Origin: an uncultured Planctomycetales bacterium
Lineage (GTDB): Bacteria > Omnitrophota > Gorgyraeia > Zapsychrales > JANLHA01
Direction: 5' to 3'
Assembly: GCA_964474085.1 (NCBI GenBank)
Contig: CAYYRJ010000004.1
Span: 11,656 to 75,655 of the forward strand
DNA: 64,000 nt
Shown here: positions 11,758 through 14,896 of the stretch, piece by piece
Numbering within the stretch: position 1 is the first letter of the stretch
How the letters are laid out: every line of letters starts with the position of its first letter
Made by a program: the position numbers and the translations under genes
The notes under the pieces: generated by a model
Database searches by the model: none
What the model was told of the DNA's origin: nothing
Seen by the model: the letters and a program-made list of their open reading frames with translations, nothing else

Positions 11758-12732
11758 ATGCTTCCTAAGATTAATTTCAAATATTCATTAAATACTTTCG
11801 GCCGTATTTTCTTTATTGGCGTTTTGGTCTTTATCCTCGGCTATATTCTGTCGCGCTGGACATTTTTTATAACAAGCGACCAGGCGTTTATCAATACCAA
11901 GCTCATAACTTTACGCGCCCCAATCGATGGGATTCTTCATCCGTATCATATTTCTGTCGGGGATCCCCTTAACAGTGGAGCATTATTAGGCGAAATATCC
12001 AACCCCCATTTTGGGAACACTGATACGTTCACAAATTATGAAAATCTCCGAAATAATATCGATGTCTTAAAAAACGAAATTGACCAAAATATCATCACAA
12101 TTTCAAAATATGAGATAGATCAAAAGAAACTCGCAAGATTAAGCGAAACCGGTGCGATTGCCAAGGATGACCTTGAAGATACCCAGAAAAGATTAAATAT
12201 TTCAAAAACGGATCTGCACAACAAAAATATTCAATTAGCCCGCCTGCAATCCAATTTGGAAGATATTGAAAAACAATTAGACCTTCAGAAAAAAAGCACC
12301 CTCTGTGCGCCTTGTTCCGGAGTCTTTTGGGCCGTCCTTGCCAAAGACGGAGAACAACTTAAGTACGGGGATGAAATCGCCCAAATCATTAATCCCGATG
12401 ATTTGTGGGTCGATGCCTTTTTTAATGAACGGTATGCCTCGCATCTTACACCTGGGATGTCGGTCAAGATTCAGGCGCTTGGCACAAAGCGTTTTTGGGA
12501 AGGCGAAATCATTTTTGTCCGCGGCGGTTCCGGCCGGATTATTTATAACACCGCTGTTGAAACACCTCCCAAAGGGATTCCAAACCGTTTGGTTGCCGTA
12601 CGAATTAAAGTTGATTGGCGCGATGCCGGATATTTACCGTCGGAATTTTATGGCGTAGGCCGCAGCGTAGTTGTTGTGGTCAATCGTATTGCAAAAAATC
12701 CACCTGCAAAAACAAAACGCTATGGTCCATAA
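11758..12732 (+). CDS. HlyD-family (membrane-fusion-protein-like) periplasmic adaptor
   Basis: N-terminal TM anchor, biotinyl/lipoyl-like hairpin (LRAPIDGILHPYHISVGDPL), a coiled-coil segment and a C-terminal beta domain. It is immediately upstream of the GT2 synthase. Confidence 0.6.
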   Translation: MLPKINFKYSLNTFGRIFFIGVLVFILGYILSRWTFFITSDQAFINTKLITLRAPIDGILHPYHISVGDPLNSGALLGEISNPHFGNTDTFTNYENLRNNIDVLKNEIDQNIITISKYEIDQKKLARLSETGAIAKDDLEDTQKRLNISKTDLHNKNIQLARLQSNLEDIEKQLDLQKKSTLCAPCSGVFWAVLAKDGEQLKYGDEIAQIINPDDLWVDAFFNERYASHLTPGMSVKIQALGTKRFWEGEIIFVRGGSGRIIYNTAVETPPKGIPNRLVAVRIKVDWRDAGYLPSEFYGVGRSVVVVVNRIAKNPPAKTKRYGP

Positions 12733-14896
12733 CCAGGCTCGGCCAAAAGAATTCGAACTCGGAATTTGGGTGGCTGGGATACTTCTGCTTTTAGTTTTTT
12801 ATTTCTTTGGGTTCAATAACTTTAATGATATCGCAAGTTTAGGGATTGAATTTCTCCGAAACGTAAAAGCCCAGTTTCGTTCAATCGGGAATTACGAAGA
12901 AGATGCAATCGTTTACGTTCCCTTTGGGCTTGTTGTCACCCTGACAGCACTGGGAATTGTATTTTTCCCAAAACCACCTCGGCCGTTGGTCATAGCTGTC
13001 GTATTCTCTTTGATGGGTTCGCATACCCTTTATGTTTTGTTCCGGATTTTCTGTACGATTGAATTAGAAAATTCAGTCAGCGCCTGGAGTACTTTGATAC
13101 TTGCTCTCTTTGATGTCATTATCTATATTTCATCTCTGACGATATATTGTCAAATTCTATTTACCACAAATCGCTCAAACTCTGCTGATCAATATGAAAA
13201 CCACGTTTTGGAAGGTCGTTTTCAACCGCAGGTGGATGTTTTTATCCCAACTTACTCTGAACCAGTCGATATGCTGCGCCGAACGATCATCGGCTGCCAG
13301 TTGATGAATTATTCTAATAAAATAATTCATCTGCTTGATGATGGCCGACGGCTTGAAGTCCAAACATTGGCCAAAGAACTTGGCTGCAATTACATTGCCC
13401 GCAACGACAATCGGCACGCTAAAGCTGGAAACATTAATCATGCTTTGAGCAAAACCCATGGCGAATTTATCGCAATGTTTGATGCCGACTGTGTCCCAAC
13501 ACAAAATTTTTTGTCCAGAATGGTTGGATTCTTTCTTGAAAAAGACTTAGGGCTGATCATCAGCGCGCAAACTTTTTACAATGCCCAAATGTTTTCGCAT
13601 AATATTATGTCGCTTATGGAACAATCGGTCTTTTTTAGAATGACTCAAAAAGGCCGCGACCGTTTTAATGCCTTGTTGTGTTTTGGAACATGTTTTATTG
13701 TCCGACGCAAAGCAATGGAAGAAATTAACGGTATGCCGACAGAAACTTTGTCCGAAGATTGGGCCACATCGATCAAGCTCCAAGCCCATGGATTTAAAAC
13801 TTATATGCTCGATGAAGTTTTAGGATCCAGCGCAGTTGCCGAATCGATGGGCGAATTTGTTAGGCAACGCATCCGTTGGACACAAGGAACTTTGCAGGCT
13901 TTATTTGCACCGACAAATCCGCTGACAATCAAAGGTTTAACGCCTATGCAACGGTTTATCCACGGACATGGAATTTTGCATTATCTGACCACACCGTTTT
14001 ATATTTTTATCATTGTTATTCCGTTGCTGTATTTTCTTTTTGGTTTTGCCCCGTTTGAGGTGACACGGGGTCAATTCTGGTTTTTCTTTATGCCTTTTGT
14101 CTTTTTAAATATCGTCACCTTGTCCTGGCTAACCCAAGAGTATACGTCCAAACTTAGCAGCTTGGTTTGCGAATCTTTCATGTGTATTCCGATCACAATT
14201 ACGATTGTTAAAACTTTGCTGCGCCCCTTTGGCTGGCGTTTTCGAGTCACACAAAAAGGGGTGTACCGCAACAAAACTTCGCTCAATTGGCTGCTGGGAG
14301 GTCCACTGTTGATGTTTCTGGGACTGCTTCTTCTGGCGACACTTTACGGATATTTTAATCGGTACTGGTTTGGGTCAGTGGATTTGTTTTATTTTCTTTT
14401 TATTTTTTCCGTTATTCGCATTCTCTTGTTGATCATTGGAATTTATGCCGCGCATGATTTCCCTCAACAGCGTAGAAATGCGCGTTTTACCCATCAATAT
14501 GTCTGCAAGCTTGATACTGGCTTGGCTGTTCTAGACAGTACAACCGTCAATATTTCGGAAACCGGCATCTTGCTGAAGTCTGACGCAAACCTTTTTCCCG
14601 AGATTTCATCAAAAAATATCCACGAAACAAAAATCGATGCAACTATTGATATTCCCCAAATCAAACTAAAAAATGTTCCTGTCCGTTTTATTCGCAGCTC
14701 AAAAAAACAGGCCGCGCTGGCTTTTAAAAATTTGACATTAGATCATTATCGTCAATTAATCAAACACTTGTATTGTCAACCCGGGCAGTTGGATTTCAAA
14801 GAAAACCTGGATAAGCAAGTCCTAGCGTCCATTGGAAAGGCTTTGCGTCTTGAAAATTTGTTTGCCGTCCGTCCAAAATCATCCGCGATTGCCTAA
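12722..14896 (+). CDS. Processive family-2 glycosyltransferase (cellulose-synthase-like) with C-terminal PilZ domain
   Basis: GT2 catalytic motifs are present: DDG (LLDDGRR), DAD (MFDADCV), TED-like (LSED), and QxxRW (QRIRWTQG). Multiple TM helices are followed by a C-terminal PilZ-like region (RRNARFT ...DTGLAVLDSTTVNISETGILLKS). Confidence 0.8.
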   Translation: MVHNQARPKEFELGIWVAGILLLLVFYFFGFNNFNDIASLGIEFLRNVKAQFRSIGNYEEDAIVYVPFGLVVTLTALGIVFFPKPPRPLVIAVVFSLMGSHTLYVLFRIFCTIELENSVSAWSTLILALFDVIIYISSLTIYCQILFTTNRSNSADQYENHVLEGRFQPQVDVFIPTYSEPVDMLRRTIIGCQLMNYSNKIIHLLDDGRRLEVQTLAKELGCNYIARNDNRHAKAGNINHALSKTHGEFIAMFDADCVPTQNFLSRMVGFFLEKDLGLIISAQTFYNAQMFSHNIMSLMEQSVFFRMTQKGRDRFNALLCFGTCFIVRRKAMEEINGMPTETLSEDWATSIKLQAHGFKTYMLDEVLGSSAVAESMGEFVRQRIRWTQGTLQALFAPTNPLTIKGLTPMQRFIHGHGILHYLTTPFYIFIIVIPLLYFLFGFAPFEVTRGQFWFFFMPFVFLNIVTLSWLTQEYTSKLSSLVCESFMCIPITITIVKTLLRPFGWRFRVTQKGVYRNKTSLNWLLGGPLLMFLGLLLLATLYGYFNRYWFGSVDLFYFLFIFSVIRILLLIIGIYAAHDFPQQRRNARFTHQYVCKLDTGLAVLDSTTVNISETGILLKSDANLFPEISSKNIHETKIDATIDIPQIKLKNVPVRFIRSSKKQAALAFKNLTLDHYRQLIKHLYCQPGQLDFKENLDKQVLASIGKALRLENLFAVRPKSSAIA

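What the first reader, a model, noticed from the sequence alone, without database searches (positions are those of the whole stretch)
11758..14896. HlyD-like adaptor + GT2 synthase with C-terminal PilZ: c-di-GMP-gated exopolysaccharide synthase of minimal architecture
The GT2 has the D,D,D,QxxRW processive synthase signature plus a PilZ tail, like BcsA. There is no BcsB-like partner. A membrane-fusion-protein homolog precedes it instead, resembling the domain logic of alginate Alg44 (PilZ+MFP) combined with Alg8. This is close to the pilus genes, which fits c-di-GMP-controlled surface behaviour.
Basis: partly seen in the sequence, partly recalled or inferred. Interest (0 to 1): 0.55.

Follow-up and report, generated by a model that had tools for sequence, protein, structure and literature searches.

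The report
Efflux-pump-style cellulose-like synthase operon
An uncultivated Omnitrophota bacterium carries a two-gene operon, a periplasmic adaptor plus a c-di-GMP-sensing cellulose-synthase-like enzyme; this layout is already known from cyanobacteria and rhizobia, so it is a new example, not a new kind.

Summary
ORF 11758-12732 is a true HlyD/EmrA/MacA-type membrane-fusion protein (MFP). ORF 12722-14896 is a full-length BcsA-like processive GT2 synthase. All its catalytic motifs, the FxVTxK gating loop and a C-terminal PilZ domain with RxxxR and NxSxxG are intact. The two genes overlap by 11 nt. No BcsB, BcsC, BcsZ or TolC-like gene lies in the 64-kb window.

The architecture is not new. It matches the cyanobacterial XcsA (PilZ) + XcsB (HlyD-like) + TolC system (Maeda 2018) and the rhizobial BgsB-BgsA + TolC system. 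It is not really "minimal" either. In the closest relatives (43-58% identity) the same MFP-synthase pair is followed directly by a TolC-like outer-membrane factor, and in four relatives that factor is fused in frame to the synthase. The window lineage has no such gene next to the pair, so it probably uses one encoded elsewhere.

The c-di-GMP and pilus link is supported. A c-di-GMP-I riboswitch precedes the pilin genes, and the pilus ATPase carries an MshEN domain.

Verdict: new member of a known kind, in a new phylum. The polymer it makes is unknown; cellulose or another beta-glucan is most likely.

The parts
11758..12732 (+). HlyD/EmrA/MacA-type membrane-fusion protein (XcsB/BgsB-like adaptor), 324 aa. 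It has an N-terminal TM anchor (res 7-36), a split lipoyl-like domain, an alpha-hairpin (res 89-131 and 136-178) and a beta-barrel (res 206-309). It has no membrane-proximal domain.
   Evidence: Pfam HlyD_3 and HlyD_D23. NCBIfam EmrA and RND_mfp subfamilies, below cut-off. AF2 model with pLDDT 79. Foldseek top matches are EmrA in EmrAB-TolC (8zar, E=5e-17) and MacA (3fpp, 5nik). Homologues 45-54% identical lie directly upstream of the synthase in every relative locus.
12127..12162 (+). Tip of the MFP alpha-hairpin, KLARLSETGAIA. This is a K-x3-L-x6-A version of the RxxxLxxxxxxS ('RLS') TolC-docking motif.
   Evidence: Motif definition and the MacA tip sequence RQQRLAQTKAVS come from PMC3391258. 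Relatives carry R-x3-L-x6-A or R-x3-L-x6-S.
12722..14896 (+). BcsA/XcsA-like processive GT2 synthase with a C-terminal PilZ domain, 724 aa. The ATG start overlaps the MFP stop codon by 11 nt.
   Evidence: AF2 model with pLDDT 86 and pTM 0.84. Foldseek TM-score 0.76 to R. sphaeroides BcsA 4p00_A over the full length.
13334..13879 (+). Catalytic GT-A core carrying LDDG, HAKAGN, FDAD (the DxD motif), CFGTC (in place of FFCGS), SED (in place of TED) and QRIRW.
   Evidence: The residues are invariant in alignment A1.
14240..14257 (+). Gating loop FRVTQK (FxVTxK).
14465..14773 (+). PilZ domain with RRNAR (RxxxR, 14471-14485) and NISETG ([D/N]xSxxG, 14549-14566).
   Evidence: Pfam PF07238, 29.3 bits against a gathering score of 22.5. 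Both motifs are conserved across the clade. The AF2 model shows a beta-barrel at res 594-668.
15049..15122 (+). tRNA-Ala(CGC). It marks the 3' boundary of the operon and occupies the place where relatives have the TolC-like gene.
   Evidence: The sister strain L086 has the same arrangement.
5428..5531 (+). c-di-GMP-I riboswitch upstream of the pilin genes. This is context only: it shows c-di-GMP signalling in the same neighbourhood.
   Evidence: Rfam RF01051, 59 bits against a gathering score of 35. Conserved in L086.

Best explanation
This is an Xcs/Bgs-type, efflux-pump-like, synthase-dependent exopolysaccharide system. The inner-membrane BcsA-like GT2 polymerises a UDP-sugar into a linear beta-glucan and threads it through its own transmembrane channel. 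UDP-glucose, giving cellulose or a close relative, is the most likely case. Catalysis is gated by c-di-GMP binding to the C-terminal PilZ domain, which releases the FxVTxK gating loop as in BcsA. The co-translated, membrane-anchored MFP takes the place of BcsB. It forms a periplasmic funnel above the synthase, and its alpha-hairpin tips dock a TolC-like outer-membrane factor through which the polymer leaves the cell. In this lineage that factor is not encoded next to the pair and is presumably supplied from elsewhere in the genome, as in Thermosynechococcus and Sinorhizobium.

Shown here: domain identities, motifs, folds, gene coupling, conserved synteny, and the adjacency or fusion of an outer-membrane factor in relatives.

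Inferred: the sugar and linkage, c-di-GMP activation, the MFP-synthase contact, and use of a distant TolC-like protein.
For: Synthase:
- BcsA homology at E=1e-63.
- Full-length fold match, TM-score 0.76 to 4p00.
- All catalytic, gating-loop and PilZ motifs are present and conserved.

MFP:
- Pfam HlyD families.
- The AF2 model has a TM anchor, lipoyl-like domain, 43-residue-per-arm hairpin and beta-barrel.
- Best structural matches are adaptors that dock TolC: EmrA and MacA.
- The hairpin tip carries an RLS-like motif.

Coupling and synteny:
- The two genes overlap by 11 nt.
- An MFP homologue lies directly upstream of the synthase in all 8 distinct loci of the clade examined, the window included.
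- No transporter gene (ABC, MFS or RND) lies next to the pair in the window.

Outer-membrane factor:
- A TolC-like (Pfam OEP) gene lies immediately downstream in L003, L004, L087 and L089.
- It is fused in frame to the synthase in P0003, P0004, P0008 and P0018.

Closest characterised relatives:
- Thermosynechococcus XcsA-type proteins: 35% identity over res 70-694, PilZ included.
- S. meliloti bgsB-bgsA has the same gene order and also overlaps; identity is 34% in the GT core.
- Genetic evidence for the three-part model is in Maeda 2018 (cited in PMC12430437 and PMC8892547) and in PMC13438883.

c-di-GMP in the neighbourhood: riboswitch and MshEN ATPase.
Against: - No TolC-like gene exists anywhere in the 64-kb window (tblastn, clade-specific HMM, Pfam scans). 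The outer-membrane step is therefore unproven for this organism.
- The first and last positions of the hairpin-tip motif are K and A, not R and S.
- The NCBIfam cellulose-synthase equivalog score is far below its cut-off (331 vs 699 bits).
- The acceptor-site motif reads LCFGT, not FFCGS, so the product may not be cellulose.
- No diguanylate cyclase is encoded in the window (regex, Pfam scans).
- No endoglucanase (XcsC/BcsZ equivalent) is nearby.
Confidence: 0.75

Rival explanations
1. The machinery is the same but the polymer differs. The pair would make a non-cellulose glucan, such as a mixed-linkage beta-1,3/1,4-glucan like BgsA or a curdlan-like polymer, or another homopolymer.
For: Identity to BgsA in the GT core (34%) is about the same as to XcsA-type proteins (35%) and to E. 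coli BcsA (32%), so sequence does not separate the products. The FFCGS acceptor motif is LCFGT and TED is SED throughout this clade. The protein scores well below the CelA equivalog cut-off. A GalE-type epimerase lies about 3 kb downstream.
Against: The full-length similarity, PilZ included, and the best bit scores are to the cyanobacterial XcsA group (368-387 bits, against 242 for BgsA). BgsA has no PilZ-homologous tail. The Foldseek ranking puts BcsA far above CslF6 and hyaluronan synthases.
Confidence: 0.3
2. An Alg44/Alg8-like logic. The MFP-like protein would act as a periplasmic co-polymerase or scaffold that hands the chain to a TPR/beta-barrel porin, and no TolC-type channel would be involved.
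For: No TolC-like gene is in the window. TPR-containing membrane proteins flank the operon at 8261-10246 and 15901-17766. Alg44 does have an MFP-like periplasmic domain (PMC8892547).
Against: PilZ sits on the synthase, not on the adaptor. The adaptor has a long alpha-hairpin with an RLS-like tip, typical of TolC-docking adaptors. Relatives place a TolC-like factor next to the synthase or fuse it to the synthase. The flanking TPR proteins are PMT_2-type polytopic inner-membrane glycosyltransferase-like proteins, not beta-barrel porins, and the one at 8261-10246 is missing in sister strain L086.
Confidence: 0.08
3. A canonical BcsAB synthase whose BcsB is encoded elsewhere. The upstream MFP would be an unrelated efflux-pump adaptor that happens to lie next to the synthase.
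For: Only 64 kb of the genome is visible. HlyD-family adaptors are common.
Against: The genes overlap by 11 nt. The same MFP subfamily precedes the synthase in 8 of 8 distinct loci, at 43-58% synthase identity, across otherwise unrelated neighbourhoods. No pump gene is adjacent. The word-indexed search of 5.8 billion proteins found only 16 relatives of this MFP; those whose context I read lie beside the synthase, on the same contigs.
Confidence: 0.04

Closest known systems
[quoted passage not shown] Source: Maeda et al. 2018, Mol Microbiol 109:121, as summarised in PMC12430437 and PMC8892547.
   Same: A BcsA-like synthase with a C-terminal PilZ domain, a HlyD-like adaptor in place of BcsB, and no BcsC. 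It is the best-scoring characterised relative: 35% identity over res 70-694 to Thermosynechococcaceae orthologues. In two of the GTDB representative loci retrieved (L005 Verrucomicrobia, L008 Xenococcaceae) an adaptor of the same subfamily is also adjacent.
   Different: Different phylum (Omnitrophota). No endoglucanase (XcsC) lies nearby. The adaptor is shorter: 324 aa, against 380-414-codon open frames in L005 and L008. In the window's clade the outer-membrane factor is ancestrally in the operon or fused to the synthase, which has not been reported for cyanobacteria; the review says the three genes are not in one operon in T. vulcanus.
Rhizobial BgsB-BgsA (+TolC) mixed-linkage beta-glucan system of Sinorhizobium meliloti (PMC13438883; Perez-Mendoza 2015, cited there).
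   Same: A two-gene operon with the MFP first and the GT2 synthase second, and the genes overlap (L084). It is activated by c-di-GMP through the synthase C-terminus. TolC is encoded elsewhere and is genetically required.
   Different: The BgsA C-terminus is not a recognisable PilZ domain; similarity to the window protein ends at about residue 537. BgsB is only distantly related to the window MFP (18% identity over 144 aa, E=1e-7). The product there is a beta-1,3/1,4-glucan.
Canonical BcsA-BcsB(-BcsC-BcsZ) cellulose synthase (R. sphaeroides 4p00, E. coli 9fnn).
   Same: The catalytic subunit has the same fold (TM-score 0.76), the same catalytic motifs, the gating loop and the PilZ c-di-GMP switch.
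   Different: No BcsB, BcsC or BcsZ in the window. An MFP takes their place. The protein scores below the NCBIfam equivalog threshold.
Alginate Alg8-Alg44.
   Same: A GT2 synthase paired with an inner-membrane protein that has an MFP-like periplasmic domain, under PilZ-mediated c-di-GMP control (PMC8892547).
   Different: In Alg44 the PilZ domain is on the adaptor, and export uses AlgK/AlgE. The sequence relationship to Alg8 and Alg44 was not detected or tested here.

Membership tests
BcsA-type processive GT2 beta-glucan synthase | GT-A domain with the D, DxD, (T/S)ED and QxxRW motifs | tested here: met
   LDDG, FDAD, SED and QRIRW are present and invariant in alignment A1.
BcsA-type processive GT2 beta-glucan synthase | Eight-TM channel architecture and an FxVTxK gating loop | tested here: met
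   AF2 model with pLDDT 86; TM-score 0.76 to 4p00_A over about 747 alignment columns. FRVTQK at residues 507-512.
BcsA-type processive GT2 beta-glucan synthase | C-terminal PilZ domain with RxxxR and [D/N]xSxxG | tested here: met
   Pfam PilZ at 29.3 bits, above the gathering score of 22.5. R584RNAR588 and N610ISETG615 are conserved in the clade.
BcsA-type processive GT2 beta-glucan synthase | Obligatory BcsB partner encoded alongside | tested here: not met
   No BcsB family hit in any window ORF of at least 150 aa. Relatives' loci also lack it. The rest of the genome cannot be seen.
BcsA-type processive GT2 beta-glucan synthase | Meets the curated equivalog threshold for a UDP-forming cellulose synthase | tested here: not met
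   TIGR03030: 330.7 bits against a cut-off of 699.1. NF008558: 258 bits against 992.
BcsA-type processive GT2 beta-glucan synthase | Product is a beta-1,4-glucan | not testable with these tools
   Needs biochemistry.
Xcs/Bgs-type three-part (synthase + MFP + TolC-like factor) glucan secretion system | HlyD-family MFP genetically coupled to the synthase | tested here: met
   The genes overlap by 11 nt. The MFP is upstream in 8 of 8 distinct clade loci, the window included. Fold match to EmrA and MacA.
Xcs/Bgs-type three-part (synthase + MFP + TolC-like factor) glucan secretion system | MFP alpha-hairpin with an RLS-type TolC-docking tip | tested here: inconclusive
   The hairpin is present. The tip reads K-x3-L-x6-A in the window and R-x3-L-x6-A or -S in relatives. 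In MacA, S-to-A keeps some activity (PMC3391258). The effect of K in place of R is unknown.
Xcs/Bgs-type three-part (synthase + MFP + TolC-like factor) glucan secretion system | TolC-like outer-membrane factor | tested here: inconclusive
   Absent from the 64-kb window and from sister strain L086. Adjacent in L003, L004, L087 and L089, and fused in P0003, P0004, P0008 and P0018. In the known systems the TolC gene is also unlinked.
Xcs/Bgs-type three-part (synthase + MFP + TolC-like factor) glucan secretion system | Sequence relationship to the characterised XcsA | tested here: met
   35% identity over residues 70-694 to Thermosynechococcaceae loci L017 and L037, at 368-387 bits, the highest among characterised groups.
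Alg8/Alg44-type system | PilZ domain located on the MFP-like co-polymerase | tested here: not met
   The MFP has no PilZ domain, only a 36-residue N-terminus with a TM helix. PilZ is on the synthase.

The most novel reading that the evidence does not exclude
The Omnitrophota clade around this locus would show that BcsA-type synthases really are wired to TolC-type channels. The ancestral state there is an MFP-synthase-TolC-like operon. Several lineages have fused the cytoplasmic PilZ end of the synthase, through a retained signal-peptide-like segment with an AxA site, to the outer-membrane factor. That would make one precursor protein spanning two membranes, presumably cut by signal peptidase. 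In the window lineage the dedicated factor was lost. What remains is a two-gene module inside a local c-di-GMP regulon (riboswitch-controlled pilins, an MshEN pilus ATPase and the PilZ synthase) that could drive attachment of these very small, possibly host-dependent bacteria.
Probability: 0.25. Interest if true: 0.6.

Novelty: new member of a known kind. Interest (0 to 1): 0.4.

Why it matters
The window adds an Omnitrophota example to the BcsB-less, efflux-pump-like cellulose and beta-glucan secretion systems, which so far have been studied only in cyanobacteria and rhizobia.

The more useful result is comparative. [quoted passage not shown] In this clade the three genes are contiguous, and in some members the synthase and the outer-membrane factor are one reading frame. 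That is independent genomic support for the model, and it offers compact operons for reconstitution or structural work.

The locus also shows three different c-di-GMP receptor types within 15 kb (riboswitch, MshEN, PilZ), which points to coordinated control of pili and exopolysaccharide in a phylum with no cultured model.

Tried and rejected
- Searched the window for a TolC-like gene with tblastn, using the outer-membrane-factor parts of the four fused relatives, and with an HMM built from six clade sequences against all six-frame ORFs. Nothing was found.
- Looked up the exact contig of the window protein P0001. It is not on record. The sister-strain contig L086 was used instead.
- Cluster look-up for organism names returned none. 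Taxonomy was obtained from AlaRS homologues instead.
- Census of 79 GTDB loci. Most cyanobacterial relatives have neither an MFP of this subfamily nor a TolC-like gene within 6 kb, even after five jackhmmer rounds. The operon form is therefore not universal. More divergent HlyD-like genes could have been missed.
- Looked for a c-di-GMP riboswitch or other known RNA directly upstream of the MFP, or between the synthase and rsmE. Only the tRNA was found. None was found in the relatives' loci either.
- The promoter and terminator scan around the operon gave no more hits than shuffled sequence.
- A regex search for GGDEF/EAL motifs in the window ORFs found no credible cyclase or phosphodiesterase.
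- The Proteus mirabilis hit (H1) has no annotated features. The synthase there is followed by 784- and 855-codon open frames, which fits a BcsB/BcsC-type locus, so it is probably not an MFP-type example.
- Considered whether the divergently transcribed ICMT-like membrane protein (10254-11570) belongs to the system. It is adjacent only in the window and L086, so I left it out.
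Full report
**What is there**

The interval holds two same-strand ORFs.

The first, 11758-12732 (324 aa), matches Pfam HlyD_3 (E=4.8e-15) and HlyD_D23 (E=1.3e-11), both above the gathering score. It also matches the EmrA/RND adaptor subfamilies of NCBIfam, below their cut-offs. MacA is its best match among solved structures by sequence.

An AlphaFold2 model built on 15 homologues (pLDDT 79) shows:
- an N-terminal transmembrane helix (res 7-36);
- a split lipoyl-like domain;
- a two-helix hairpin (res 89-131 and 136-178);
- a beta-barrel (res 206-309);
- no membrane-proximal domain.

Foldseek against the PDB puts EmrA from the EmrAB-TolC pump first (8zar, E=5e-17), followed by MacA from MacAB-TolC. 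The upstream protein is therefore a true membrane-fusion protein (MFP), not merely a lipoyl-domain protein.

The second ORF is listed from TTG 12671. ATG 12722 gives a 724-aa protein identical to database entry P0001, and it overlaps the MFP stop codon by 11 nt (ATGGTCCATAA). That arrangement is typical of translational coupling.

The protein is a full-length BcsA homologue:
- E=1e-63 to E. coli BcsA and 1e-51 to R. sphaeroides BcsA.
- NCBIfam CelA at E=1.4e-98, although 331 bits is well below the equivalog cut-off of 699.
- An AF2 model with pLDDT 86 and pTM 0.84 that superposes on 4p00_A with TM-score 0.76 over the whole chain.

All functional motifs are present, and I verified their positions by translation: LDDG, HAKAGN, FDAD, SED, QRIRW, the gating loop FRVTQK, and the two PilZ motifs RRNAR (RxxxR) and NISETG ([D/N]xSxxG). 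The Pfam PilZ match is above the gathering score (29.3 vs 22.5 bits). Both PilZ motifs are conserved across the clade. The second refutation condition, absent PilZ motifs, also fails.

**Surroundings**

I scanned every window ORF of at least 150 aa against Pfam. None is BcsB, BcsC, BcsZ/GH8, TolC-like (Pfam OEP) or GGDEF/EAL.

- Upstream lie a secretin fragment, a T2SS/T4P ATPase with an MshEN domain, a PilC-like protein, and then pilin and minor-pilin genes.
- Two polytopic membrane proteins sit on the minus strand: a TPR protein at 8261-10246 and an ICMT-like protein at 10254-11570.
- Downstream come tRNA-Ala (15049-15122), rsmE, a PMT_2/TPR protein and galE.
- A long ABC-transporter-type O-antigen/glycan cluster then runs to about 57.6 kb, followed by recA, recX, a DegP-like protease and alaS.

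All named AlaRS homologues are from Candidatus Omnitrophota/Omnitrophica, at up to 71% identity. The named relatives of the synthase point the same way.

**Relatives and synteny**

The synthase has 50-58% identical relatives in metagenomes, and some are labelled Omnitrophica or Aureabacteria. I read the DNA of seven distinct relative loci, which with the window makes eight.

An MFP homologue, about 45-54% identical in the loci compared by BLAST, lies directly upstream of the synthase in all eight. What follows the synthase varies:
- In L003, L004, L087 and L089, a 446-482-aa TolC-like gene follows at once. It either overlaps the synthase gene or sits about 30 nt away.
- In L001/L002 (P0008) the TolC-like domain is fused in frame to the synthase. 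The same is seen in P0003, P0004 and P0018.
- In the window, in its sister strain L086 (about 90% identical, same gene order) and in the Aureabacteria locus L088, no TolC-like gene is adjacent.

The fusion linker keeps a signal-peptide-like hydrophobic stretch and an AxA-type site, for example ...LLLSLLATGFPSLFCGAA|EQ. An exhaustive search of 1.84 billion cluster representatives with P0008 found only a handful of such fusions. They are rare but occur in divergent lineages, at 40-47% identity to each other.

Among one-genome-per-species representatives, the nearest relatives are a Verrucomicrobia MAG (37% identity) and about 50 cyanobacteria (33-40%), including Thermosynechococcaceae. An MFP of this subfamily is adjacent only in the Verrucomicrobia locus and one Xenococcaceae locus.

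**How it most likely works**

The parts match the published efflux-pump-like cellulose secretion model. In Thermosynechococcus vulcanus, XcsA (Tll0007, a BcsA homologue with PilZ) needs the HlyD-like XcsB (Tlr0903) and a TolC-like protein (Tlr1605) for extracellular cellulose. [quoted passage not shown] In Sinorhizobium meliloti, the bgsB (MFP)-bgsA (GT2) operon makes a c-di-GMP-activated mixed-linkage glucan, and TolC, encoded elsewhere, is required (PMC13438883). I retrieved that operon: the gene order is the same, the genes overlap, and the GT core is 34% identical to the window protein.

I therefore propose three steps:
- c-di-GMP binds PilZ and opens the gating loop, by inference from BcsA.
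- The synthase polymerises a beta-glucan and moves it across the inner membrane.
- The MFP, anchored by its N-terminal helix next to the synthase, forms a periplasmic conduit whose hairpin tips dock a TolC-like channel.

The hairpin tip reads KLARLSETGAIA. E. coli MacA has RQQRLAQTKAVS at the equivalent place, the RxxxLxxxxxxS TolC-docking motif (PMC3391258). Relatives keep the R and L and carry A or S at the last position.

For this organism the outer-membrane partner is inferred, not shown.

**Rivals**

- A different product, such as a mixed-linkage or other glucan, is a serious possibility. Identity to BgsA, XcsA and BcsA is similar in the core. The FFCGS acceptor motif reads LCFGT, and the protein fails the CelA equivalog cut-off.
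- The Alg44/Alg8 analogy is weaker. PilZ is on the synthase, the adaptor is of the TolC-docking type, and relatives encode a TolC-like factor.
- A chance neighbour relationship is excluded by the gene overlap and the 8-of-8 synteny.

**c-di-GMP context**

Rfam finds a c-di-GMP-I riboswitch at 5428-5531 (59 bits, gathering score 35). It lies about 180 nt upstream of two tandem, nearly identical pilin genes and is conserved in the sister strain. The pilus ATPase has an MshEN domain (Pfam E=9e-17) carrying two tandem 24-residue motifs. From my own knowledge, these fit the published MshEN c-di-GMP-binding pattern.

**Novelty and verdict**

The architecture is known, and reviews already list HlyD-like substitution of BcsB. 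I found no paper that links it to Omnitrophota, or that describes an in-operon or fused outer-membrane factor, but the library searched is incomplete.

The window locus is a new member of a known kind. The operon-encoded and fused outer-membrane factors in its relatives are a modestly interesting by-product, because they support a model that reviews still call unvalidated. Interest: 0.4.

Noticed in passing
window 5428-5531 (+); also L086 5228-5332: A c-di-GMP-I (GEMM-I) riboswitch, 59 bits against a gathering score of 35. It lies about 180 nt upstream of two tandem pilin genes and is conserved in the sister strain.
   Followed up: partly
window 5712-6131 and 6235-6645 (+): Two tandem, nearly identical major-pilin-like genes that differ mainly in their first few residues. 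Minor-pilin-like genes follow, up to 8245.
   Followed up: no
window 496-2292 (+): A T2SS/T4P ATPase with an N-terminal MshEN domain. It carries two tandem 24-residue motifs, KLGEILLQQGLINEAQLREAIQVQ and RIGEILIKLGFLTEEDIVAALGSQ, of the type reported to bind c-di-GMP.
   Followed up: partly
L001 8001-11570 (P0008); also P0003, P0004 and P0018: In-frame fusions of the GT2-PilZ synthase to a TolC-like outer-membrane factor. The linker looks like a retained signal peptide with an AxA site. The fusions are rare but occur in divergent lineages.
   Followed up: partly
L001 and L004 (both from assembly GCA_040961635.1): One MAG carries two paralogous MFP-synthase-outer-membrane-factor systems, one with the factor fused to the synthase and one with it separate.
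   Followed up: no
L088 1-7592 (Candidatus Aureabacteria MAG): The MFP-synthase pair sits directly downstream of curli secretion genes (csgE, csgF, csgG and curlin-repeat proteins) and is followed by a stand-alone PilZ protein. No TolC-like gene is nearby.
   Followed up: no
window 10254-11570 (-): A 438-aa polytopic membrane protein with a C-terminal ICMT/PEMT-like methyltransferase domain, transcribed divergently from the MFP. It is adjacent in the window and L086 but not in other relatives. Its function is unknown.
   Followed up: partly
window 15049-15122 (+): A tRNA-Ala(CGC) gene lies between the synthase and rsmE, exactly where relatives have the TolC-like gene. This could mark a rearrangement point.
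   Followed up: no
window 3571-5334, 8261-10246, 15901-17766, 33700-35040, 35995-37557: Five large polytopic membrane proteins. Three hit Pfam PMT_2 (ArnT/PMT-like glycosyltransferase; 15901-17766, 33700-35040, 35995-37557) and three carry C-terminal TPR repeats (3571-5334, 8261-10246, 15901-17766). The N-terminal regions of 3571-5334 and 8261-10246 look alike by eye. This is an unusual density for one region.
   Followed up: no
window 17799-57641: A roughly 40-kb ABC-transporter-type (Wzm/Wzt) glycan cluster. It holds NeuB and CMP-sugar genes, many GT2 and methyltransferase genes, a fused epimerase-sugar-transferase and a WaaL-like ligase.
   Followed up: no
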